DNA of 64,000 nt from an uncultured Clostridia bacterium. Its GTDB lineage: Bacteria; Bacillota; Clostridia; TANB77; CAG-508. Position 1 is the first letter of the stretch. Each line of letters opens with the position of its first letter. The position numbers were made by a program, and so were the translations under genes. Location: NCBI GenBank assembly GCA_944386325.1, contig CALXAP010000005.1:32377-96376 (forward strand). The letters run 5' to 3'. A model generated the notes under the pieces. The model did no database searches. It saw only the letters and a list, made by a program, of their open reading frames with translations, and was not told where the DNA came from. This document shows, one piece after another, positions 5,900-63,129 of this stretch.

Positions 5900-6179
5900 A
5901 TTACCACCTAACTTAAAATTATATATGATATTCTATAATAAAATTAACTCCAACTTTACAGGTAGTACTTGCAGTATAAAATTTTTTTGTATAAAAAAAT
6001 ATATAAATGTAGAAAATTTGATATTATAGCTAGAAAAATAAATATTTTAACACATGAATTAGTAACAATATAAAAATTATTAAATATTATATAATATTAT
6101 AACTTATAAAGATACAATTATTATTAAAAGTTATTTGATAAATTTTTATAGAGTTAAATTAGCTCAAATGGAGGTTTTT

Positions 6180-6881
6180 ATGGATTATGAAGTTTTAATG
6201 AATGGGAATGTAAGAATAGGTCAATATGCTCCAGACTTTACAGCTACTTCAACAATGGGAGAAATAAAGTTAGAAGATTATAAGGGAAAATGGTTAGTTT
6301 TATTTTCACACCCAGGAGACTTTACCCCCGTATGTACTACTGAGATAATAGCATTTGCAAAAGTATATACATACTTTAAACAATTAAATACTGAATTATT
6401 GGGATTAAGTGTAGATAGTAATGCTTCGCATTTAGCATGGGTATTTGATATTTATTGTAGAACTGGAATACGAATACCTTTTCCAATAATTGCAGATAGA
6501 AATGGAGCAATAGCAAGAAAATACGGAATGATATCAAATGATGTGAGTAATACAGAAACAGTTAGAAATGTATATATAATAGATGGAAACGGAATTATAA
6601 GAACAATATTAATATATCCTATGAATGTAGGAAGATTTATCCCAGAAATTATTAGAATAGTTCAAGCTTTACAGATGGCAGATTGTGAAACTGCTGCAAC
6701 TCCTGCAAATTGGATAGTAAATCAACCAATTATTCAACAAATACCAAAAACATTTAAAGCATTAGAGGAAAGAAATAATCAAATACAAGAAAATAATAAT
6801 GGAATGAGTTGGTATTTGAGTTTTAAAGAGCCATCAGAAAAATGCAAGAACGATGTAGATAAATGTGAGAAAAATTTATAG
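6180..6881 (+). CDS. Peroxiredoxin, 1-Cys / Prx6-like (AhpC/TSA family).
   Basis: HPGDFTPVCTTE active-site motif with thioredoxin-fold context. Start placed at the ATG after the ATGGAGG Shine-Dalgarno; the ORF-track start at 6135 is upstream, in frame. Confidence 0.75.
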   Translation: MDYEVLMNGNVRIGQYAPDFTATSTMGEIKLEDYKGKWLVLFSHPGDFTPVCTTEIIAFAKVYTYFKQLNTELLGLSVDSNASHLAWVFDIYCRTGIRIPFPIIADRNGAIARKYGMISNDVSNTETVRNVYIIDGNGIIRTILIYPMNVGRFIPEIIRIVQALQMADCETAATPANWIVNQPIIQQIPKTFKALEERNNQIQENNNGMSWYLSFKEPSEKCKNDVDKCEKNL

Positions 6882-11723: not shown

Positions 11724-12521
11724 TTGTTCAATAAGAGAGGAGAATGTCAATTGGCAAATAAAAATGAAGAAATAAGAATTTATATTAGGAAGGAGAAGGC
11801 TTCGAATCCTACCAATATAAAGGCTTTTCTTCGGTTCTCGTTGGTGATAATGACAGCTATCGCTGGGTTATCTTCTCCATTTGTTGCATACTCGGCATAT
11901 CAAAATGATGTACTTGGTATAAAAACACAAGTGGAAAAAGTAGTAGAATTGTCATCATCAAGAGATAATTTGCAAAGCGAGGAGAAAAATTTCGAAGAAA
12001 TTAGTAGTGAAGAACTTCACTACCTGAGAGAGAAGAAAAAACAAATTGCTGAACAGAAAGTAACACCACAAGTTGTTACACAAGTTCAGCAAGTTCCTGA
12101 ACAACCTGTTGTTCAGGAACAAAAATCAGAAAGCTTAAATATGTCTGATCCTTTTACAGGACAGACGCATGCAATTTCTGCTGAAGAATACCATATGGCT
12201 TGTATGGTAGTCGAAGCAGAAGGCGAAAGTACAGGGTACGAGAATAAACTGGAGATTGCAGAAGTAATTCGCAATCGAATGTTTAATCCTCGTTATAAAA
12301 AATCAAATCTGTGGGAGCTCTTTAATGCTCCTGGACAGTTCGAAACCGTCAATTATGATGGAAATGTAGAACGTTCAGGAAAGCGTTTCTATTGGGAGAA
12401 TATCCCACAGGAAACCAAAGAAGCTGTTTCGGCAGCATTCTTTAATGGCTCTGCCGTTCTTCCAGCCAATGCACTTGGTTGGAGAGGAAACGGCAAATAT
12501 AATGAAATTGTCCTTGAGTAA
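11724..12521 (+). CDS. Secreted cell wall hydrolase with a SleB/CwlJ-type (Hydrolase_2) domain.
   Basis: ISAEEYHMACMVVEAEGESTGYENKLEIAEVIRNRM...NAPGQFE matches the SleB catalytic domain. Local GC is visibly higher than the surroundings. The N-terminal start is uncertain; a signal-peptide-like stretch begins at FLRFSLVIMTAIAG. Confidence 0.55.
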   Translation: MFNKRGECQLANKNEEIRIYIRKEKASNPTNIKAFLRFSLVIMTAIAGLSSPFVAYSAYQNDVLGIKTQVEKVVELSSSRDNLQSEEKNFEEISSEELHYLREKKKQIAEQKVTPQVVTQVQQVPEQPVVQEQKSESLNMSDPFTGQTHAISAEEYHMACMVVEAEGESTGYENKLEIAEVIRNRMFNPRYKKSNLWELFNAPGQFETVNYDGNVERSGKRFYWENIPQETKEAVSAAFFNGSAVLPANALGWRGNGKYNEIVLE

Positions 12522-12553
12522 GGGCAAGTTTGAATTAGAAAAGAACAACCATA

Positions 12554-12580
12554 AGCCTAGCAATTGCTGGGCTTTTTTTT
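12554..12580 (+). terminator. Rho-independent terminator.
   Basis: GCCTAGCAATTGCTGGGC hairpin followed by a T9 run. Confidence 0.65.
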
Positions 12581-12712
12581 ACATTATAGAAAATTACATT
12601 TTCTATAATGTAAAAATATGGTATACAGAAAAATCTTGTATATTTCTTGTACATCTTAAATTAATGTGATTAATATAAAAAATAGGGAAGAGATATAGCA
12701 AAGCTAGGTTTG
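12581..12712 (+). ncRNA. Conserved intergenic element, copy A. Candidate structured RNA or regulatory module, homologous to 31006-31138.
   Basis: About 80% identity with copy B over roughly 130 bp. Two hairpins carry compensatory substitutions. The element sits upstream of a + strand gene in both copies. Confidence 0.35.
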
Positions 12713-12783
12713 TTTTAACAAAAAATAAAATAAAATTATAATATTTAAATTTGTGTACATAATAAAATTTATGGAGGTGCAAT

Positions 12784-12957
12784 ATGGATAGAAATCAAAA
12801 AATTCATTGTCATGTTGAAAGTTGTTTATATAATGATATAGACACAAATAGATGTTCATTAGATGAAATAGTAGTACAACCATGTGAAGGATGTTCTACA
12901 GGTGAAGCAGATGAATCTATGTGTGGTAGTTATGAAAGTTATAATGCAGATGAATAA
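12784..12957 (+). CDS. DUF1540-family small cysteine-rich protein (57 aa). Below the ORF-track size cutoff.
   Basis: ATGGAGGTG RBS. The sequence MDRNQKIHCHVESCLYNDIDTNRCSLDEIVVQPCEGCSTGEADESMCGS contains the C-x-V-x-x-C-x-Y-N motif typical of DUF1540. Confidence 0.5.
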   Translation: MDRNQKIHCHVESCLYNDIDTNRCSLDEIVVQPCEGCSTGEADESMCGSYESYNADE

Positions 12958-27273: not shown

Positions 27274-27411
27274 TTTTTTCCAGGTTATTAATTTTTTTGT
27301 TAATATATAAGGTTATAAAAAAAATGATTTATCTGGAAAAAAATAATAAAATAGTTAATATATGAATGAAATTTTATTATATATGAATGTAAAAACATTC
27401 ATTTTTCAATG
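27274..27411 (+). promoter_or_regulatory. CRISPR leader (AT-rich), cas2-proximal.
   Basis: 138 bp AT-rich region between cas2 and the first repeat. Degenerate repeats sit at the opposite end of the array. Confidence 0.6.
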
Positions 27412-30280
27412 GTTAAACTATAACATGAGATGTATTTAAATGAGACAATCACATTCGATTGTCTTTCTTTGTGGTATGTTAAACTATAACATGAGATGTA
27501 TTTAAATAGAGTATCCATGCACATCTGACATTTGTTATAGAAAGTTAAACTATAACATGAGATGTATTTAAATTGAGACCGATGAAAATGATAAGCGCCG
27601 TCTTTATGTTAAACTATAACATGAGATGTATTTAAATGCCATTTTTTTATCAGCTTCTTCTTTAATTTTCTTAGTTAAACTATAACATGAGATGTATTTA
27701 AATATTAAATGCTGAAGGATATGGATTAGGTGGTGCAACGTTAAACTATAACATGAGATGTATTTAAATAATTTTCGGTCATGCTTTTATTTATAATAGC
27801 ATTAAGTTAAACTATAACATGAGATGTATTTAAATTATTTTTCAGCTTTTTTTAAACCCCTACTACAAAAAGTTAAACTATAACATGAGATGTATTTAAA
27901 TCCGCGGAACTTATGTACAAAATACTAGATACTTTGGGTTAAACTATAACATGAGATGTATTTAAATATGCTTATGATACTTTTGAGACAATTAAGACTT
28001 AAAGTTAAACTATAACATGAGATGTATTTAAATATAACAATATTTTTGTTAGTATTTGGAACAGGTAGAGTTAAACTATAACATGAGATGTATTTAAATA
28101 GGTGTTATTTCTCCTCGTTGGGTTGATTTGTTTGAGTTAAACTATAACATGAGATGTATTTAAATCATTCTGTAGATATATATGTAAGATTTATAAGAGA
28201 TAGTTAAACTATAACATGAGATGTATTTAAATCTGCTCTTTTTCCTGATTTAGCTAATATATTTACTTGTTAAACTATAACATGAGATGTATTTAAATCC
28301 ATATTGAGAAGTAAAAGCATCCGAAAAAGAGTTATGTTAAACTATAACATGAGATGTATTTAAATTCTTCAGAAGCCTGAGAAGACAGAAAGTCATTTTG
28401 GTTAAACTATAACATGAGATGTATTTAAATTCGGCCTCATGAAAGGGCTTGAAGATTTGTATAAAAAGTTAAACTATAACATGAGATGTATTTAAATAAA
28501 ACATCCTTATTAACAAAACAAGTAACAATATAAGTTAAACTATAACATGAGATGTATTTAAATAATAATTTTGTAACAACAAAAAATATCGCCTGTATTG
28601 TTAAACTATAACATGAGATGTATTTAAATTACTACGTCAAACTCGTATATTTCAACAAGTAAATCGTTAAACTATAACATGAGATGTATTTAAATTAGTA
28701 GAAGTGATTATAATGATGTTAAAAATTTTGTGTTAAACTATAACATGAGATGTATTTAAATCCTACTATACCCCATAAGTTTGTTGCAGATAGCTCTGTT
28801 AAACTATAACATGAGATGTATTTAAATAAAACATACTCAACTACACGCCATTCATAATCTTTAGTTAAACTATAACATGAGATGTATTTAAATTTTTCAT
28901 GTGTAAGTATAAAAGTAATAATATCATCAAGTTAAACTATAACATGAGATGTATTTAAATGAAGAAGAAATTAGACGCATTAGTTTAAGTCGAACTAAGT
29001 TAAACTATAACATGAGATGTATTTAAATTTACTATAATTATAATTAAATATTATATCAGAATTTGTTAAACTATAACATGAGATGTATTTAAATCCGTAT
29101 TGAGCAGTCCAAACATCTGTAAAACTGTTGTGTTAAACTATAACATGAGATGTATTTAAATTATTTTTCAGCTTTCTTTAAGCCTCTAGAACAAAAATGT
29201 TAAACTATAACATGAGATGTATTTAAATCTATCATTAGCCTGAGAATTAAGAAAATCGTTTTGGTTAAACTATAACATGAGATGTATTTAAATAACATTT
29301 TAGAATTGTAATAACCATATTCATTTTTAGTTAAACTATAACATGAGATGTATTTAAATATATCAAATTTCTTGTAATATGTTTCAGTTTTTTGGGTTAA
29401 ACTATAACATGAGATGTATTTAAATTATAGATTGGCGGAACCTTTCGCAAGAGAGGGTTCCGTTAAACTATAACATGAGATGTATTTAAATAGGTGTTAT
29501 TTCTCCACGTTGGTCTGATTTATTTGAGTTAAACTATAACATGAGATGTATTTAAATAACATTTTAGAATTATAATATCCAAACTCATTTTTAGTTAAAC
29601 TATAACATGAGATGTATTTAAATCAATTCATATCACAGACAGTTTTATAATCGCAAAAGTTAAACTATAACATGAGATGTATTTAAATATATACAACTGG
29701 AGGAGGAGCGGGTTGCTTTGGAAGGTTAAACTATAACATGAGATGTATTTAAATGACTTAATAAATAAAAACCGAAAAGAACCAGTGGTAGGTTAAACTA
29801 TAACATGAGATGTATTTAAATTTAAAACTTGCGTATACGTACGCTTTATCACCAAGGTTAAACTATAACATGAGATGTATTTAAATTCTACATATGATAG
29901 AAGATACATAGATGAAAAAACAGTTAAACTATAACATGAGATGTATTTAAATTGTATATTCATTTAAACTAATCCATTCTTCCATTTTGTTAAACTATAA
30001 CATGAGATGTATTTAAATGAAACTCCATTTTCGCCACCTAAAAATGTATTAAGTTAAACTATAACATGAGATGTATTTAAATTTTACATTCTAGTATGTT
30101 TATATTAATACTTTAGATGTTAAACTATAACATAAGATGTATTTAAATATTAAATGCTATTGCAAGAATACTATATAAAGACAAGTTAAACTATAAGATG
30201 AGATGTATTTAAATTAAGAATTTGATAATTCTACAGGTAAAAAGAAAATTGTTAAACTATAACATGATGTATTAACACTA
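27412..30280 (+). CRISPR. CRISPR array: about 44 copies of the 30 bp repeat GTTAAACTATAACATGAGATGTATTTAAAT with 35-37 bp spacers.
   Basis: Perfect periodicity of about 66 bp. The three leader-distal repeats are degenerate (30123, 30185, 30251), fixing the leader at the cas2 side. Confidence 0.97.
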
Positions 30281-30879: not shown

Positions 30880-30975
30880 TTGTTTTGGATCGGATTAATA
30901 ATAGGATTATTTATAGGTGCAAATATAGCTATAATAATATTTGCATGTATATCAATTAAAAAAAGTAAAATTTGA
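30880..30975 (+). CDS. Putative 31 aa hydrophobic peptide (MFWIGLIIGLFIGANIAIIIFACISIKKSKI), TTG start.
   Basis: GGAGG RBS 9 nt upstream of the TTG. Single TM helix plus a basic tail. Followed by a palindromic terminator (TATACTATTAATTTAGTATA then T6). Confidence 0.3.
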   Translation: MFWIGLIIGLFIGANIAIIIFACISIKKSKI

Positions 30976-31005
30976 ATTTATACTATTAATTTAGTATAAA
31001 TTTTT

Positions 31006-31138
31006 TACTTTATAGAAATTTTCATTCCCTATAAAGTAAAAAATAGATGCACAGAAAAATCTTATATACTTCTTGCTAGACCTTAAATTAATGTAACAAA
31101 AATTAAAAATTAGGAATAAGTCTAGTGAAACTAGATTT
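31006..31138 (+). ncRNA. Conserved intergenic element, copy B (homolog of 12581-12712).
   Basis: Same two covarying hairpins and the conserved core ACAGAAAAATCTT(A/G)TATA(C/T)TTCTTG...CTTAAATTAATGT. Lies about 100 bp upstream of the alarmone synthetase gene. Confidence 0.35.
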
Positions 31139-31234
31139 GATTAAATTTCACAAAAAAGACATATAAAATAAATAATCTGACAATAAATCAAATATATAAT
31201 GCAAGAAAAATTAAAGAAAGAGGTATAAAAATAG

Positions 31235-31846
31235 ATGCAAAATTCATTCTATAAAGATTCAATAGTTTTATTGGAAGGAGTTATAGCAGAAATGCAGGCA
31301 AGACTAGATATAATAAGAAAGTATAAAATAGTACATAATGATAGAGATCCAATAGAATATATTACATCAAGAGTAAAAACAGAAGAGAGTATGAAAGAAA
31401 AACTAAAAAGAAAAAATTTGCAAGTAAATTTAGAAAATGCATTGACCAAAATATATGATGCTGCAGGAATTAGAATTATATGTGCATATATAGATGATGT
31501 TTATTCTGTAGTAAAAATGCTAAAAAAATTTAAAGATTTAAAATTAATAGAAGAAAAGGATTATATTAAAAATCCCAAACCTAATGGATATAGAAGTTAT
31601 CATATAATATTTCAAGTTCCATTAGATATTGCAGGAGAGGTACATCCAGTAAATATTGAAATTCAAATAAGAACAATAGCTATGGATTTTTGGGCAAGTT
31701 TAGAACATCAAATGAAATATAAAAAAGATATAAAAAATCAAGAAATGATAGTAGAAGAATTAAAAAGATGTGCAGATGAAATTGCAACTACAGATATAAA
31801 CATGTTAGCAATAAGAAATATGATAAATGAAGAAAAGGAGAAATAA
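31235..31846 (+). CDS. Small alarmone synthetase (GTP pyrophosphokinase, RelP/RelQ / YjbM-YwaC family).
   Basis: RelA/SpoT synthetase domain motifs (DAAGIRIICAYIDDVY...NGYRSYHIIFQVP...EIQIRTIAMDFWA). No hydrolase or regulatory domains. Confidence 0.7.
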   Translation: MQNSFYKDSIVLLEGVIAEMQARLDIIRKYKIVHNDRDPIEYITSRVKTEESMKEKLKRKNLQVNLENALTKIYDAAGIRIICAYIDDVYSVVKMLKKFKDLKLIEEKDYIKNPKPNGYRSYHIIFQVPLDIAGEVHPVNIEIQIRTIAMDFWASLEHQMKYKKDIKNQEMIVEELKRCADEIATTDINMLAIRNMINEEKEK

Positions 31847-31848
31847 AT

Positions 31849-32520
31849 ATGAAAGAAAAAATAAAAATATTGTTGGCAGATGATGAAAAAGATTTAGCAA
31901 AAGCTGTAGCAACAATTTTAACTTATAGTAATTATAATGTTGATGTTGTAAATAATGGAAAAGAAGCAATAGAAAAAATAAATAATAAAATATATGATTT
32001 AATAATTTTAGATATTATGATGCCAGTGATGGACGGTATACAAGTACTAAAAGAATTAAGAAAAAATAATATAAAAACACCAGTTATTTTATTAACAGCT
32101 AAATCTCAAGTAGATGATAAAGTAGAAGGTTTAGATTCTGGAGCAAATGATTATTTAACAAAACCATTTGATAAAAAGGAATTACTGGCAAGAATAAGAG
32201 CTTTAACAAGAATAAAAGAAGAAAATGAAGAAAAATATGAAGTAGGAAATATTGTGTTTGATAAAGAAACATCAGTATTATCTAGTAAAAAAGCATCTTT
32301 ACATTTAAACAATAAAGAATGTGAAATAATGGAGATTTTAGTTAAAAATCAAGAAAGAAATATTAGTAAAAAAGAACTAAAAAATAGAATATGGGTAAAT
32401 GAAAAAAATGATGATAATATTGTTACAATGTATATATCTTATCTACAAGAAAAATTTTCAGCTTTAGGTGCTAATATGAAAATTAGTTATAAAAATGGTT
32501 ATGTATTGGAGAAATTATAA
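31849..32520 (+). CDS. OmpR-family response regulator.
   Basis: Receiver domain (LLADDE...ILDIMMP...LLTAK) plus a winged-helix DNA-binding C-terminus. Begins 3 nt after the alarmone-synthetase stop. Confidence 0.8.
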   Translation: MKEKIKILLADDEKDLAKAVATILTYSNYNVDVVNNGKEAIEKINNKIYDLIILDIMMPVMDGIQVLKELRKNNIKTPVILLTAKSQVDDKVEGLDSGANDYLTKPFDKKELLARIRALTRIKEENEEKYEVGNIVFDKETSVLSSKKASLHLNNKECEIMEILVKNQERNISKKELKNRIWVNEKNDDNIVTMYISYLQEKFSALGANMKISYKNGYVLEKL

Positions 32521-33731
32521 TGATTAGAAATTTGAAAACAAAGTTCATTTTAATTTCTATGTTATCAATCATATTAGTAACAGGAAGTATATTTGGAGTT
32601 ATTATTTTTGAAAATTATACAAGAACAAATAGGCAAATTGATGGTATGCTAAATTTAATATCAGAAAATGATGGTAGGTTTCCAGAATATAGACCTAGAA
32701 ATGATGAGTTGGCAGAAATTATAACCCAAGAAACGCAATTTACAACTAGATATTTTATTATAAAGATGGATGAGAATGAAGAGATAATTGAGGCAAATAT
32801 GCAACATATAGCAGCAATTAATCAAGAAGAAGCATTACAAATAGTAGATGAAGTTATGGATAAAGAAAAAAATATAGGTTATTATGAAAACTATAAGTAT
32901 GAAATAACTTCAAAAGATTATGGCAAATTAATAGTATTTTTAGATTGTACAATACAATTAAATAATCTCAAATCAATAATTGAGCAGTCTATAATTATAA
33001 TTTTTACAGGATTAGTAATTGTATTCATATTTGTTTCAATATTATCTAAAAAGGCTTTAACACCAATAATAGAAAGTATAGAAAAACAAAAGCAATTTAT
33101 AACAAATGCAGGACATGAATTAAAAACTCCTGTGGCTGTTATAATGGCAAATGCTGATGTAATGGAAATGACATCAAAAGAGAATTTGGAATGGATAAGA
33201 AGTATAAAAAATCAGGCAACAAGATTAGATATTCTAATTAAAAGTTTACTTAGTTTGGCTAATATTGAAGAAAAAGGTGCAAAAATTAATTATGTAGATT
33301 TTTCAATAACTGATGTAGTAAAAGATGAGATACAAGAATTTAAAGCAATGACACAGAATAAAAAAATAATTTTTAATTCAGAAAAAAATATACATATGTA
33401 TGCAGATGTAAACAGTATTAAACAATTAGTAACTATTTTATTAGATAATGCATTAAAGTATACACCAGAAAATGGTGTAATAGAAATAAAAATAGAAAAA
33501 CAAAACAAAAGTACAAAAATACAATTTATAAACACTTGTGAAAATGCAAAAAGCATTAATACCAAAAAGATGTTTGATAGGTTTTATAGAGGTGATAAAT
33601 CAAGAAGTAAATCTAAAGAAGGATATGGAATAGGTTTGTCAATTGCAAAATCTATAGTAGAAGCACATAAAGGAAAAATTTCAGCAGATATAAATAAAGA
33701 AGGAAAGATTTGTTTTACTATAATAATTTAA
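32520..33731 (+). CDS. Sensor histidine kinase.
   Basis: Two TM segments, an H-box (NAGHELKTP), and N/G1/G2 ATPase boxes (LLDNALKYT...GYGIGLSIAK). Overlaps the regulator stop codon. Confidence 0.8.
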   Translation: MIRNLKTKFILISMLSIILVTGSIFGVIIFENYTRTNRQIDGMLNLISENDGRFPEYRPRNDELAEIITQETQFTTRYFIIKMDENEEIIEANMQHIAAINQEEALQIVDEVMDKEKNIGYYENYKYEITSKDYGKLIVFLDCTIQLNNLKSIIEQSIIIIFTGLVIVFIFVSILSKKALTPIIESIEKQKQFITNAGHELKTPVAVIMANADVMEMTSKENLEWIRSIKNQATRLDILIKSLLSLANIEEKGAKINYVDFSITDVVKDEIQEFKAMTQNKKIIFNSEKNIHMYADVNSIKQLVTILLDNALKYTPENGVIEIKIEKQNKSTKIQFINTCENAKSINTKKMFDRFYRGDKSRSKSKEGYGIGLSIAKSIVEAHKGKISADINKEGKICFTIII

Positions 33732-41807: not shown

Positions 41808-42323
41808 ATGAATAATAAAGTATTATTTAAATTAAATTACGGAATGTATATAGTTAGTTCTAAAGCAGAAGAAAAATTTTCAGGTTGTATTGTAAATACT
41901 GTTACACAGATAACTGCTGAGGAGAAACCTAAACTAATAGTAGCAATAAATAAAGGAAATTACACTAACAGTTTAGTAAAAGAAAGTAAAAAAATAAATA
42001 TATCAATATTATCTAATAAAGCTGATATGTTAGAAATAGGAAAATTTGGTTTTCGCTCAGGAAGAGATTCAAATAAATTAGAAGATATTGAATATAAAAT
42101 TGGAAATAATGGTATACCTATAATAACAGAAAATGTTGTAGGATATATGGAATGTGATGTAATAAATATAATAGATTCTGGAACACATGATTTATTTATA
42201 TTAGAAATGCAAGATGGGGAATTTCTAGATGAAAATTTAACACCAATGACATATGAATATTATCATAATGTAATAAAAGGTAAAACTCCACCAAAAGCAT
42301 CTACATATAGTAAAGAAAAATAG
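41808..42323 (+). CDS. Flavin reductase-like (FMN-binding split barrel) protein.
   Basis: Flavin_Reduct family pattern (YIVSSKAEEKFSGCIVNTV...). An alternative in-frame start exists at 41796. Confidence 0.5.
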   Translation: MNNKVLFKLNYGMYIVSSKAEEKFSGCIVNTVTQITAEEKPKLIVAINKGNYTNSLVKESKKINISILSNKADMLEIGKFGFRSGRDSNKLEDIEYKIGNNGIPIITENVVGYMECDVINIIDSGTHDLFILEMQDGEFLDENLTPMTYEYYHNVIKGKTPPKASTYSKEK

Positions 42324-42363
42324 AAGTTTTGTTAGAGCTAAAACAGCTCAGATGGAGGTTTAA

Positions 42364-42825
42364 ATGGATAATTATATGAGATTAGCAAAAGAACAGGCAG
42401 AATACGGGTTAGCACATCACGAAGGAGGACCATTTGGAGCAGTTATAACTGATAAAGAGGGAAATATAATTTCTGTATCTAATAATCAAGTTTTAAAAAA
42501 TAATGACCCAACAGCTCATGCTGAAATTCAAGCTATAAGAGAAGCTTGTAAGAAATTGAGAACATATGATTTATCAAATTGTATATTATATACTTCTTGT
42601 GAGCCATGTCCTATGTGTTTATCTGCTATAATTTGGGCTAATATTTCAAAAATTTATTATGGATGCGATAAAAAAGATGCAGCAAATATTGGGTTCAGAG
42701 ATGATATGATTTATGAATATTTTAATGATAAAAACGAATCAATATTAAAATCTATTCAAATAGATAGAAATGAATGTATAAAATTATTTGAAAAATACAA
42801 AGAAGACAATGGAACTATATACTAA
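42364..42825 (+). CDS. Nucleoside/nucleotide deaminase (CMP/dCMP-type zinc deaminase; guanine-deaminase or TadA-like).
   Basis: Zinc-binding motifs HAEIQAIREA and CEPCPMC. Confidence 0.7.
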   Translation: MDNYMRLAKEQAEYGLAHHEGGPFGAVITDKEGNIISVSNNQVLKNNDPTAHAEIQAIREACKKLRTYDLSNCILYTSCEPCPMCLSAIIWANISKIYYGCDKKDAANIGFRDDMIYEYFNDKNESILKSIQIDRNECIKLFEKYKEDNGTIY

Positions 42826-43489: not shown

Positions 43490-43760
43490 CATACGATTTT
43501 GATATAATAATATTTCCTAAATTTTTTGGCTCAATACGATATTTAAGAATTTGTAAAATAATTTAATGAGCCTCTTTCATTCAGGCTCAAAATCAAAGAT
43601 TTTGCCCATGAACATTCCTCATTAAATTATATAACAAATTCTATAAACATCTCCAATCGCATTCAAAATTTATTCTATATTATTGTATCAAAATCTATTA
43701 ATTATAATATAGAAAAAATCAAAATAACGTCAGTAGGGGCGAACAGTGTTCGCCCGCACT
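43490..43760 (+). repeat. Roughly 265 bp direct repeat, copy 1, ending in REP-like palindrome copy 2 (43737-43755).
   Basis: About 92% identical to 44537-44795. Contains an internal hairpin GAGCCTCTTTCATTCAGGCTC. Confidence 0.85.
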
Positions 43761-44536: not shown

Positions 44537-44795
44537 TAAGATTTTAATATAATAATATTTCATAAATTTTTCGGCTCAATACGATGTTTAAGAATTTGTA
44601 AAATAATTTAATGAGCCTCTTTCATTCAGGCTCAAAATCAAAGATTTTGCCCATGAACATTCCTCATTAAATTATATAACAAATTCTAAAAACATCTCCA
44701 ATCGCATTCAAAATTTATTCAACATTATTATATCAAAATCTTAAACCATAATATAAAAAAATCTAATGTAGGGGCGAACATTGTTCGCCCGCACA
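44537..44795 (+). repeat. Roughly 265 bp direct repeat, copy 2, ending in REP-like palindrome copy 3 (44772-44790).
   Basis: See copy 1. It lies immediately 3' of the bracketed gene. Confidence 0.85.
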
Positions 44796-62425: not shown

Positions 62426-62514
62426 TATAAATTTACTAGAAAAAATGAGTAAATAAAGTACTATGGGTTTAAATAAAAATAGAAAGAGCAATCATTGCTC
62501 AAATGGAGGTTGTT

Positions 62515-63129
62515 ATGAAGGTTTTAAAAAGAAATCAAATTATTATTTTTATATTAGCTTTAATGCTTGTTACAGCTGGTTATTTAAGTACAACTAGTAA
62601 TCAAAATTTATTACAAACAAGTGTTTCTACAAATTATAATAATACCAATGTTGCTAATAATGTCGATGATTCTTCAACTATAGGTGATGCTACTTTTGTT
62701 AATGGAGGGGTTTTAGTCGAAAATGAAGATTTAAATATGATATCAAATAATACTGTAAGTACTAATACTAAAAGTACAGAAGTAGATGATTACTTTTCAA
62801 ACTCTAAATTGCAAAGAGACTCAATGTATTCGCAAAGCTTAGATAGTTATCAGAAAATGTTAGATAGTACAACAATAAGTTCAGAACAAAAAGCTATTGC
62901 TCAAAATGAGATAACAAGGATTAATAATGAGAAAAATGCAATCATGATATCTGAAAATTTAATAAAGACAAAAGGTTTTGAAGATATTATTATTTTTATT
63001 AATGGTGATAGCATTAATGCAGTGATTAAATCTGATAAATTGTCCCAAGAGGAGATTGCTCAGATACAAAATATTTTATCTAGAGAGTTAAAATCAGACA
63101 TATCTAACATACATATAAGTAATAAGTAA
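62515..63129 (+). CDS. spoIIIAH: Stage III sporulation protein AH.
   Basis: N-terminal TM helix. C-terminal YscJ/FliF-like domain ...IIIFINGDSINAVIKSDKLSQEEIAQIQNIL. Start placed after the ATGGAGG SD. Confidence 0.7.
   Translation: MKVLKRNQIIIFILALMLVTAGYLSTTSNQNLLQTSVSTNYNNTNVANNVDDSSTIGDATFVNGGVLVENEDLNMISNNTVSTNTKSTEVDDYFSNSKLQRDSMYSQSLDSYQKMLDSTTISSEQKAIAQNEITRINNEKNAIMISENLIKTKGFEDIIIFINGDSINAVIKSDKLSQEEIAQIQNILSRELKSDISNIHISNK

What the first reader, a model, noticed from the sequence alone, without database searches (positions are those of the whole stretch)
12581..12712. Conserved ~130 bp intergenic element with covarying hairpins, present twice: a candidate cis-regulatory RNA (copy A)
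What the sequence shows: 12581-12712 and 31006-31138 align at roughly 80% identity, far above the background for intergenic DNA.

Hairpin 1 differs between copies by substitutions that preserve pairing. Copy A is ACATTATAGAAAAT-TAC-ATTTTCTATAATGT. Copy B is TACTTTATAG-(13 nt)-CTATAAAGTA, where an A-to-T change is matched by a T-to-A change in the partner.

A second small hairpin also covaries: TAGC-AAA-GCTA in copy A versus TCTAGT-GAA-ACTAGA in copy B.

Between the hairpins lies a nearly invariant core, ACAGAAAAATCTTRTATAYTTCTTG...CTTAAATTAATGT. Both copies sit just after a terminator and about 70-100 nt upstream of a + strand gene: the DUF1540 gene here and the alarmone synthetase gene for copy B.

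Inference: compensatory base changes point to selection on RNA secondary structure. This could be a riboswitch, an attenuator, an sRNA, or a structured 5' UTR. Alternatively it is a shared promoter/operator module. A sigma-A-like TTGTAC-18-TAATAT lies inside copy A.
Basis: partly seen in the sequence, partly recalled or inferred. Interest (0 to 1): 0.7.

Follow-up and report, generated by a model that had tools for sequence, protein, structure and literature searches.

The report
Duplicated intergenic spacer with conserved hairpin
A ~135-bp stretch of non-coding DNA was recently copied from in front of an alarmone-synthetase operon to in front of a small spore-type gene; only its AT-rich hairpin shows signs of being preserved, and nothing supports the riboswitch or leader-RNA reading.

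Summary
The repeat is real. 12575-12720 and 31001-31146 are about 75-80% identical, and nothing else in the window matches. The cis-regulatory RNA reading does not hold.

- Neither copy matches any Rfam family.
- No other copy turned up in the genome, metagenome, viral, plasmid or phage collections.
- Orthologous loci in the closest relatives lack the element. One relative keeps a clean empty site at the DUF1540 locus.
- Promoter-like regions conserved across species lie downstream of the element in both loci. The element therefore sits between the upstream terminator and the downstream promoter.
- The "invariant core" is no longer than chance allows at this identity.
- Outside hairpin 1, consensus RNA folding and compensatory changes do not exceed column-shuffled controls.

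Hairpin 1 is different. Related hairpins sit at the same place upstream of the alarmone-synthetase operon in two relatives, with four compensatory pair changes.

Best reading: copy B is the parent spacer, made of an older hairpin plus about 95 nt that two relatives lack. Copy A is a copy of it, inserted between a T-run and a T(A/C)ACAAAAAA motif that both loci already had. Any function most likely lies in the palindrome. This is modestly interesting.

The parts
12553..12580 (+). Intrinsic terminator of the upstream cell-wall-hydrolase-like gene (11724-12521). It is a G+C-containing stem followed by T8. The T-run forms the left boundary of copy A.
   Evidence: Terminator scan. The same terminator is present in relatives L053, L030 and L035.
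12581..12715 (+). Copy A of the element. It is an insertion of about 135 nt compared with the empty site in L053 and L054.
   Evidence: L053 reads GGGCTTTTTTTTT-G-TAACAAAAAAATAAAAT, with nothing between the T-run and TAACAAAAAA.
12576..12616 (.). Hairpin 1 / palindrome of copy A: T5-ACATTATAG-AAAAT-TAC-ATTTT-CTATAATGT-A5. It forms 19 perfect pairs.
   Evidence: Inverted repeat I9, folds, covariation.
12617..12715 (+). Remainder of copy A. It contains the 'core' ACAGAAAAATCTT (12625-12637) and CTTAAATTAATGT (12655-12667), the weak promoter-like TTGTAC-18-TAATAT (12647-12676), and hairpin 2 (12696-12706). There is no evidence of constraint on this part.
   Evidence: Run-length test, alifold shuffles, fold z = -0.11, strain polymorphisms.
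12715..12783 (+). Native promoter region and ribosome-binding site of the DUF1540 gene. It includes TTAACA-16-TATAAT (12715-12742). The region from about 12719 on is conserved in L053, L030 and L035. The last T of the insertion supplies the first T of the -35 hexamer.
   Evidence: Promoter scan, 11 of 12 matches; alignments.
12784..12957 (+). DUF1540 gene (57 aa, Cys-rich), downstream of copy A.
   Evidence: Pfam PF07561, E = 1.5e-8.
30880..31006 (+). A 31-aa hydrophobic peptide ORF (30880-30975), followed by its all-A/T terminator hairpin and T6. This forms the left boundary of copy B.
   Evidence: Translation. The ORF and terminator are conserved in L047.
31001..31046 (.). Hairpin 1 / palindrome of copy B: T6-ACTTTATAG-13 nt-CTATAAAGT-A6, followed by TAG. 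It aligns with the hairpin at the same place in L047, and L022 carries a similar hairpin.
   Evidence: Inverted repeat I24, alignment to L047, stem table, L022 and L047 folds.
31047..31142 (+). The roughly 95-nt part of copy B that two relatives (L047, L022) lack. It holds the core, the middle and hairpin 2 (31121-31135). L047 and L022 have a short spacer here instead.
   Evidence: Alignments.
31147..31234 (+). Native control region of the alarmone-synthetase operon. It contains the TTCACA box (31147-31152, then AAAAAGACATA), a conserved TATAAT (31195-31200) and the ribosome-binding site. It is conserved in all seven orthologous loci examined.
   Evidence: Alignment A8, local alignments, promoter scans.
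31235..33731 (+). Operon downstream of copy B: a small alarmone synthetase (RelA_SpoT domain, 203 aa), an OmpR-type response regulator and a histidine kinase.
   Evidence: Pfam. The same three-gene order appears in every relative examined.

Best explanation
The element is a duplicated piece of promoter-upstream spacer DNA. It is not an RNA leader.

Where it sits. Each copy lies between the intrinsic terminator of the gene upstream and the promoter region of the gene downstream. That promoter region is conserved across species.

Which copy came first. Copy B, upstream of the small-alarmone-synthetase / response-regulator / histidine-kinase operon, is the parent.
- Its first ~40 nt is a hairpin-forming A/T-rich palindrome: T-run, ACTTTATAG, 13 nt, CTATAAAGT, A-run.
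- Hairpins sit at the same place in related species. They differ in sequence but keep their pairing.
- The remaining ~95 nt is missing from two relatives.

How copy A arose. The whole B spacer was copied into the spacer in front of the DUF1540 gene, exactly between a T-run and a T(A/C)ACAAAAAA motif. Both loci had these two short motifs before the event. The likely mechanism is therefore short-homology templated copying or ectopic gene conversion between loci 18 kb apart in the same orientation. No transposase is needed.

What is under constraint. Only the palindrome shows any sign of it. The 'core' and hairpin 2 diverge like unconstrained sequence.

How it might act. Any present-day activity most likely lies in the palindrome, acting upstream of the two promoters as a protein-bound dyad or an extruded hairpin. 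The insertion also changed the -35 hexamer of the DUF1540 promoter, from GTAACA with a 17-nt spacer to TTAACA with a 16-nt spacer.

Shown: the repeat, the empty site, the absence from orthologous loci, the downstream conserved promoter regions, the hairpin covariation, and the lack of signal elsewhere.
Inferred: the direction B to A, the short-homology mechanism, and any regulatory role.
For: - Empty site. L053 and L054 (DUF1540 protein 96% identical) run straight from the terminator T-run into GTAACAAAAAAATAAAAT. Copy A is therefore a clean ~135-nt insertion.
- Close relative at the other locus. L047 (synthetase 95% identical) has the same upstream peptide gene and the same terminator. It has a hairpin in place of the copy B hairpin, and only ~20 nt where copy B has ~95 nt. 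L022 agrees with this short form.
- Copy A includes the part of copy B that aligns with L047's hairpin. This argues for copying of a locus segment rather than insertion of an element with its own ends.
- Both junction motifs pre-exist in the unoccupied or short relatives: T9...ACAAAAAAA in L053 and T6...CACAAAAAG in L047.
- The proximal promoter regions are conserved across 5 DUF1540 loci and 7 synthetase loci, and they lie downstream of the element.
- Hairpin 1: 4 of 9 core pairs are compensatory among A, B and L047, and only the loop-proximal pair is unpaired, in L047. On the five-sequence alignment that adds A_L001 and L022, the covariation score is 0.271 against 0.128 in shuffles (0 of 500 reach it), and slid controls give 0.05-0.10.
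- Between A and B the stem, counted with its T and A runs, is 26/28 identical. The rest is 84/117 identical (p = 0.013).
- The rest of the element shows no signal. The alifold z-score is -0.43, and compensatory pairs do not exceed shuffles. Fold z-scores are -0.1 and -1.2. Identical runs are as expected by chance.
- No Rfam family matches. No other copies were found anywhere searched.
- Third-codon identity between this species and the L047-type relative is 69-81%. About 25% A/B divergence therefore fits a duplication after that split.
Against: - Only 64 kb of this genome could be searched, so more copies elsewhere are not excluded. More copies would favour a mobile element.
- No transcript data exist, so the promoter positions are inferred from conservation and consensus matches only.
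- The palindrome's compensatory changes point to base pairing or templated mutation rather than protein-DNA recognition. This weakens the 'operator' version of the function.
- A second lineage also shares a hairpin arm between a DUF1540 locus (L030-33) and a synthetase locus (L022-23): TTGTATA[G/A]GAAAAATCG, 16 of 17 identical. A single accidental duplication does not predict this. It suggests either ongoing gene conversion between the two loci or selection for a shared site.
- The right-hand junction cannot be placed to the nucleotide.
Confidence: 0.55

Rival explanations
1. Selected co-regulation module. The palindrome is a functional upstream site, either a dyad bound by a regulator or a hairpin recognised as a structure. 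It places the alarmone-synthetase operon and the DUF1540 gene under common control. The similarity between the two loci within a genome is then maintained by selection.
For: - The hairpin is kept by compensatory change.
- Between A and B, the stem is more conserved than the rest.
- A second lineage shows near-identical hairpin arms at a DUF1540 locus and a synthetase locus (16 of 17 nt).
- In relatives, the hairpin lies 10-25 nt upstream of the conserved TTCACA box.
Against: - One close relative has the hairpin at the synthetase locus but an empty DUF1540 site. More distant synthetase loci lack it altogether (L049-52, L026).
- Symmetric double substitutions at 4 of 9 positions are not what a sequence-specific DNA-binding protein predicts.
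- Whether L022 and L030 come from one genome is unverified.
- The ~95 nt shared by A and B is not explained by this model.
Confidence: 0.2
2. Non-autonomous mobile element, either MITE-like or a palindrome-associated element of the IS200/IS605 type. It would insert just after the T-run of an intrinsic terminator.
For: - There is a clean empty site in a relative.
- Both copies start immediately after a terminator T-run, in the same orientation.
- There is a hairpin at the left end and a small hairpin near the right end.
- The same slot holds different inserts in other lineages, including hairpin-rich ones (L030, L049).
Against: - I could see no terminal inverted repeats and no target-site duplication when reading the junctions.
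- Only two copies are known, and no related sequence exists in about 600 Gb of genomes, the metagenome set, viral contigs, plasmids or phages.
- The left part of copy B aligns with a resident hairpin at the same locus in L047. The unit copied therefore includes local sequence.
- The two end hairpins are unlike each other.
Confidence: 0.12
3. Structured cis-regulatory RNA. The element would be transcribed as part of the 5' leader of both genes and would act as a riboswitch or attenuator.
For: - Hairpin 1 covaries.
- RNAalifold can draw a long-range helix between the core and the right arm (12631-12648 with 12691-12714). It has two compensatory pairs between A and B, and the strain variants remain compatible as G.U pairs.
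Against: - That helix is no better than column-shuffled alignments. With the four rows z = -1.32, and 10% of shuffles have as many compensatory pairs. With A and B alone, alifold does not predict it.
- Fold energies equal those of shuffled sequence.
- There is no Rfam hit.
- The element is absent from the orthologous leaders of relatives whose proteins are 95-96% identical.
- A terminator lies immediately upstream, and the conserved promoters lie downstream.
- Hairpin 2 is not terminator-like.
- G.U evidence for strand is mixed: A_L001 and L022 favour the + strand, while the inner stem of copy B favours the - strand.
Confidence: 0.08
4. Stand-alone small-RNA gene cassette on the + strand. The palindrome arms would supply -35 and -10 like hexamers (TTTACA-20-TATAAT in copy A). 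The core would form the body of the RNA. Hairpin 2 and its T-rich tail would act as a weak terminator.
For: - The insert boundaries coincide with the putative -35 hexamer and with the T-rich tail.
- The slot in the sister lineage L030 carries a convincing terminator-like hairpin, GAGGATATA...TATATCCTC followed by TTTTCTT.
Against: - The 20-nt spacer is too long.
- Copy B has TTTACT and TATAAA, which lacks the key final T. The related hairpins in relatives have no better hexamers.
- Neither copy has a terminator at hairpin 2.
- The body shows no structural or conservation signal.
- A 10-13 codon ORF (MVYRKILYISCTS in A, MHRKILYTSC in B) has no ribosome-binding site.
Confidence: 0.07

Closest known systems
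Short intergenic palindromic repeats of bacteria (REP/BIME, BOX, RUP, ERIC, Correia-type elements); from general knowledge
   Same: Non-coding, about 100-150 bp, hairpin-forming, lying between genes next to terminators, present or absent between close relatives.
   Different: Only two copies are known. The element is A/T-rich with no G+C-rich REP stem. It has no terminal inverted repeats or target duplication. Its left part aligns with a resident hairpin of one locus. No associated transposase has been identified.
Quasi-palindrome template-switch mutation that creates and maintains hairpins (PMC8794818)
   Same: It explains perfect or compensated inverted repeats in DNA without selection on an RNA. 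The hairpin 1 stems change on both arms together.
   Different: The mechanism was not demonstrated here. It does not explain why the hairpin persists at the same position upstream of the synthetase operon in at least three lineages.
Ectopic gene conversion or short-homology-mediated duplication of promoter-upstream DNA; from general knowledge
   Same: A segment bounded by short motifs that exist at both loci is present at a second site nearby, in the same orientation. A relative keeps the unoccupied site.
   Different: The homologies are very short (a T-run and 8-9 nt). Direct evidence for the mechanism is lacking.
relPRS operon of Streptococcus mutans: a small alarmone synthetase co-transcribed with a two-component system; recalled from memory, not checked in the library
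   Same: The gene order synthetase, response regulator, histidine kinase downstream of copy B is conserved in all relatives examined.
   Different: This concerns the neighbouring genes only. No upstream hairpin element is known to me for relPRS.
Riboswitches and leader RNAs in Rfam
   Same: Intergenic, upstream of a gene, containing a covarying hairpin.
   Different: No family matches. The element is not conserved in orthologous leaders. It probably lies upstream of the promoter. It has no multi-helix structure beyond chance.

Membership tests
Known cis-regulatory RNA (any Rfam family) | Match to a family covariance model at or near the gathering score | tested here: not met
   The whole window at gathering threshold returns only CRISPR repeats. 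Both copies at E<=10 return only chance microRNA/sRNA hits far below threshold.
Cis-regulatory leader RNA (generic) | Conserved in the orthologous 5' regions of related species | tested here: not met
   The element is absent upstream of the synthetase operon in L047, L022, L049-52, L024, L026 and L028. It is absent upstream of DUF1540 in L053, L030, L035 and L034.
Cis-regulatory leader RNA (generic) | Lies inside the transcript, downstream of the promoter | tested here: inconclusive
   The conserved promoter-like regions (12715-12742; 31147-31200) lie downstream of the element, and a terminator lies directly upstream. No transcript data were available.
Cis-regulatory leader RNA (generic) | Multi-helix structure supported by covariation above a null model | tested here: not met
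   Outside hairpin 1, the alifold z-score is -0.43 (A+B) and -1.32 (with strains), and compensatory pairs do not exceed shuffles. Hairpin 1 alone passes.
MITE-type non-autonomous transposon | Terminal inverted repeats and a target-site duplication | tested here: not met
   Reading the junctions against the empty site L053 and against L047 shows neither.
MITE-type non-autonomous transposon | Presence/absence polymorphism with an intact empty site | tested here: met
   L053 and L054 have an empty site at the DUF1540 locus.
MITE-type non-autonomous transposon | Multiple dispersed copies in the genome | tested here: inconclusive
   There are two copies in the 64-kb window and none in the other sequence held or in public collections. 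The rest of this genome could not be read.
IS200/IS605-derived palindrome-associated element | Similar subterminal hairpins at both ends and a cognate Y1 transposase | tested here: inconclusive
   The left hairpin has 15-19 bp. The right hairpin has 4-6 bp and a different sequence. Transposase genes were not searched for.
Intrinsic terminator | Stable hairpin followed directly by a T-run on the transcribed strand | tested here: not met
   On both strands, hairpin 1 is preceded by the T-run and followed by an A-run. Neither hairpin 1 nor hairpin 2 is reported by the terminator scan.
MerR-type promoter (dyad centred in an over-long 19-20 bp spacer) | Conserved -35 and -10 hexamers 19-20 bp apart flanking the dyad | tested here: inconclusive
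   Copy A has TTTACA-20-TATAAT. Copy B has TTTACT-20-TATAAA. L047 and L022 have poorer hexamers with 20-24 bp spacing (read). A/T-rich palindromes generate such hexamers by themselves. No MerR-family gene was sought.
Type I toxin-antitoxin antisense RNA | Small hydrophobic toxin ORF with an overlapping or convergent antisense RNA gene | tested here: not met
   A 31-aa hydrophobic ORF precedes copy B only. Copy A has none. L047 keeps the ORF without the ~95-nt part. The comparison system is in PMC5961336.

The most novel reading that the evidence does not exclude
The A/T-rich hairpin would be a control element conserved in structure rather than in sequence. It would tie the small-alarmone-synthetase / two-component operon to the Cys-rich DUF1540 gene. 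The basis is that two separate lineages each carry near-identical hairpins at both loci: A and B here, and L030 and L022 in relatives. The hairpin would be recognised as an extruded DNA hairpin or an RNA hairpin by a factor still to be identified, and it would have been recruited to the second gene by copying spacer DNA.
Probability: 0.15. Interest if true: 0.55.

Novelty: new member of a known kind. Interest (0 to 1): 0.25.

Why it matters
- It removes a false lead. Two similar intergenic stretches with apparent compensatory changes looked like a new riboswitch. Comparison with close relatives shows a recent spacer duplication in which only one hairpin is preserved.
- It is a clear small example of promoter-upstream DNA being copied between loci, with an intact empty site and a recognisable parent locus. 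This is one way in which genes can acquire new upstream sites.
- The recurring hairpin upstream of a relPRS-like alarmone operon may be worth testing experimentally in a cultured relative, as may its appearance at the DUF1540 gene in two lineages.

Tried and rejected
- Rfam. I searched the whole window at gathering threshold, both copies at E<=10, and nine related loci. Nothing relevant matched.
- Core pattern CAGAAAAATCTTNTATANTTNTTG. Scans of the genome, metagenome and viral collections gave 8, 11 and 0 hits. All hits were chance matches, most of them inside coding sequence such as mutS.
- blastn of copy A against plasmids and phages found nothing.
- An nhmmer profile of A+B, and a covariance model of hairpin 1, were run over the window and the related loci. 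Neither found a further copy. The only extra covariance-model hit was an unrelated, probably terminator, hairpin in L034.
- Long-range helix between the core and the right arm. It looked attractive: two compensatory pairs, and strain variants all compatible as G.U. It did not beat column-shuffled alignments.
- Within-species diversity as a test of constraint. This was uninformative, because diversity varies about tenfold between neighbouring genes and the loci were retrieved by exact DUF1540 identity.
- Mini-ORF (13 and 10 codons). It has no ribosome-binding site and carries non-synonymous strain variants, so I rejected it.
- Response-regulator direct repeats in the core (TCTT-N7-TCTT, or TACAAGA-N4-TACAAGA on the minus strand). 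The second repeat is polymorphic, poorly kept in copy B, and unlike the conserved TTCACA...GACATA box of the operon.
- Matches to sigma-54, sigma-H, ECF and known palindromic boxes (CodY, PerR/Fur, BlaI). Inspection from memory found no convincing match.
- Link to the nearby CRISPR array or its leader. No similarity was found.
- Literature on DUF1540 and on synthetase/two-component operons in Clostridia. Nothing bore on the element.

Full report
**Observation.** The window is A/T-rich and Clostridia-like. Identical proteins occur only on gut-type metagenome contigs, so the source is an uncultured species.

- The repeat finder gives 12575-12649 against 31001-31075 at 81% identity without gaps.
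- MAFFT and local alignment carry the similarity on to about 12720 and 31146. Identity is 75% over 140 columns.
- The core pattern occurs exactly twice in 64 kb, against 0.01 expected.
- An nhmmer profile of the two copies finds nothing else in the window.

Hairpin 1 is a perfect inverted repeat in both copies. Copy A has 19-nt arms with a 3-nt loop. Copy B has 16-nt arms separated by 13 nt. Both copies begin directly after a terminator T-run. They end 68 nt (copy A) and 92 nt (copy B) before the start codons of the DUF1540 gene and of a small alarmone synthetase. That synthetase heads a three-gene operon with an OmpR-type response regulator and a histidine kinase.

**No known RNA family and no homologues.** Rfam gives only CRISPR repeats for the window, and only far-sub-threshold chance hits for either copy. 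The core pattern was scanned against one genome per species (about 600 Gb), the metagenome collection and viral contigs. This returned 8, 11 and 0 hits. All were chance matches, most of them inside coding sequence. blastn against plasmids and phages found nothing.

**Comparison with relatives is decisive.** I fetched orthologous loci through the two flanking proteins.

*Synthetase operon.* The three-gene order is kept in every relative. The roughly 90 nt before the start codon is alignable in all of them, including a TTCACA-AAAAAGACATA box and an ATATATAAT motif. The element is absent from all of them.

The closest relative is L047, with a synthetase 95% identical. It has the same upstream 31-aa peptide gene and the same terminator. 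It then reads T6-GTTTAATAGGGTAATTTTTATTACATATTAAAC-AAAATAG, followed by about 20 nt and then the TTCACA box. So L047 has a hairpin where copy B has hairpin 1, but it lacks the ~95 nt that holds the 'core' and hairpin 2. L022 (89% identical) also has a hairpin just upstream of the TTCACA box, with the same short form.

*DUF1540 gene.*
- L053 and L054 (96% identical) run straight from the same terminator, GGGCT9, into GTAACAAAAAAATAAAATAAAATTATAAT. This is a clean empty site.
- L030-33 (93%) carry a different ~190-nt filler in the same slot.
- L035 (86%) carries yet another filler, and L034 (75%) has almost none.

In all of these, the proximal region is conserved. In the window this region includes TTAACA-16-TATAAT at 12715-12742, an 11 of 12 match to the sigma-70 consensus.

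The element therefore occupies a variable slot between the upstream terminator and the downstream gene's own promoter region. It is not part of the conserved leader.

**Origin.** Copy A contains both the hairpin that aligns with L047's hairpin at the B locus and the ~95 nt that L047 and L022 lack. Its hairpin is closer to copy B's than L047's is. The simplest history is that the whole B spacer was copied to locus A.

The copy is bounded on the left by a T-run and on the right by T(A/C)ACAAAAAA. Both motifs are present in the unoccupied or short relatives: T9...ACAAAAAAA in L053 and T6...CACAAAAAG in L047. I saw no terminal inverted repeats and no target duplication. I therefore favour short-homology templated copying or ectopic gene conversion between two loci 18 kb apart in the same orientation, rather than transposition.

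Third-codon identity to the L047-type species is 69-81%. The ~25% divergence between A and B is therefore compatible with a duplication after that split.

The insertion also changed the -35 hexamer of the DUF1540 promoter. It is GTAACA with a 17-nt spacer in L053, and TTAACA with a 16-nt spacer here (read).

**What is constrained.** Hairpin 1 is. Placed in register, the nine core stem pairs of A, B and L047 show double-sided changes at four positions: A-T/G-C, C-G/T-A, A-T/T-A and T-A/A-T. There are no single-sided breaks, apart from the loop-proximal pair in L047.

On a five-sequence alignment:
- 88% of cells pair.
- The covariation score is 0.271 against 0.128 +/- 0.042 in shuffles (0 of 500 reach it).
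- Sliding the partners by 1-3 columns gives only 0.05-0.10.

Between A and B, the stem with its T and A runs is 26/28 identical. The rest is 84/117 identical (p = 0.013).

Everything else looks unconstrained.
- The two 13-nt identical runs that make up the 'invariant core' are what random scatter of the differences gives (P = 0.57 and 0.13).
- The 99-nt part after the hairpin folds no better than shuffled sequence (z = -0.11 and -1.23).
- RNAalifold on A+B without the hairpin gives z = -0.43 against column shuffles, and no excess of compensatory pairs.

A long-range helix between the core and the right arm looked promising at first. It had two compensatory pairs, and the strain variants kept pairing as G.U. 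It fails the same control: z = -1.32, and 10% of shuffles do as well.

Hairpin 2 is 4 bp in copy A. It is reduced to two G.U pairs in strains L001 and L006, and it is not terminator-like. The in-element TTGTAC-18-TAATAT is a 7 of 12 match by my count, is not kept in copy B, and is polymorphic.

**What the hairpin might be.** It is not a terminator, because on either strand the T-run precedes it and an A-run follows it.

G.U evidence for a transcribed strand is contradictory. A_L001 and L022 favour the + strand. The inner stem of copy B pairs better on the - strand.

Symmetric double substitutions argue for base pairing, in DNA or RNA, or for templated quasi-palindrome mutation (PMC8794818). 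They argue against a sequence-specific protein site.

The arms carry -35 and -10 like hexamers 20 bp apart in copy A (TTTACA...TATAAT). These decay in copy B and in the related hairpins of L047 and L022, and any A/T palindrome would produce such hexamers.

A covariance model of the hairpin finds no further copy in the window or in 17 related loci. It is therefore not a dispersed family.

One observation goes beyond a single accident. The filler at the DUF1540 slot of L030-33 begins TTGTATAGGAAAAATCG, which is 16 of 17 identical to the hairpin arm upstream of the synthetase operon in L022-23. If those loci belong to one genome, which I could not verify, then a second lineage also shares a hairpin between these same two loci. 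That would point to continuing gene conversion between them, or to selection for a common upstream site.

**Verdict.** The interpretation as a cis-regulatory RNA is not supported, apart from the real covariation of hairpin 1.

The best-supported description is a duplication, so far seen only in this species, of promoter-upstream spacer DNA that carries an older, structure-conserved palindrome. Any function is likely to reside in that palindrome and remains inferred.

It is a new instance of a familiar kind of thing, a small intergenic hairpin-bearing repeat or duplication. It is of modest interest.

Noticed in passing
window 27378-30214: A large CRISPR array of about 43 repeats of GTTAAACTATAACATGAGATGTATTTAAAT (Rfam CRISPR-DR3). 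The two repeats at the right end are degenerate. Cas1 and Cas2 lie to the left, as seen in L012. Some spacers are near-duplicates of each other (families D3 and D4).
   Followed up: partly
window 30880-30975: A 31-aa strongly hydrophobic ORF with a Lys-rich tail (LFWIGLIIGLFIGANIAIIIFACISIKKSKI) behind an AGGAGG ribosome-binding site. It lies about 670 nt from the CRISPR array and is conserved in L047. It has no Pfam match. It resembles type I toxins, which in C. difficile sit next to CRISPR arrays (PMC5961336).
   Followed up: partly
window 16401, 43714, 44749, 55561, 56642: Five copies of a G+C-rich nested hairpin, TGTAGGGGCGAACATTGTTCGCCCGCACTACA, in intergenic DNA. This is a REP-like repeat family. 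The centre, CGAACATTGTTCG, also resembles a LexA-type box.
   Followed up: no
window 6138-6182, 42322-42366, 62473-62517: Three unrelated genes (a peroxiredoxin-like gene, a deaminase-like gene and one of unknown function) share a small hairpin, AGAGCnnnnnnnGCTC, placed directly before AAATGGAGG and the ATG. This may be a common translation-initiation-region structure.
   Followed up: partly
window 43492-43696 and 44537-44741: A 205-nt direct repeat, 96% identical, with copies 1045 nt apart.
   Followed up: no
L030 2745-2940 (DUF1540 locus of a relative): The slot that holds copy A here holds a different ~190-nt insert in this lineage. It consists of a ~100-nt long hairpin (-31.7 kcal/mol), then a 12-bp hairpin, then a terminator-like hairpin, GAGGATATA...TATATCCTC, followed by TTTTCTT. 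It could be a small-RNA gene. It has no Rfam match.
   Followed up: partly
L049 2257-2390 (synthetase locus of a relative): A ~125-nt near-perfect long palindrome (TGTCTCATTGGGGACG...CGTCCTCAATGAGACA) is present upstream of the synthetase operon in L049. It is absent from L050-52, which carry the same protein. This looks like a MITE-like insertion polymorphism in the same slot.
   Followed up: no
window 31147-31200 and orthologous loci: A conserved TTCACA-AAAAA-GACATA box lies about 45 nt upstream of a conserved TATAAT that has no recognisable -35 hexamer. It is present in all seven synthetase / response-regulator / histidine-kinase operons examined. It is a plausible autoregulatory site for the operon's OmpR-type regulator.
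   Followed up: partly
window 12737-12765 and orthologous loci: The DUF1540 proximal region conserves TATAAT and, further downstream, GTACATAATA. The latter resembles sporulation-sigma -10 motifs. This would fit DUF1540 being a small Cys-rich protein associated with spores.
   Followed up: no
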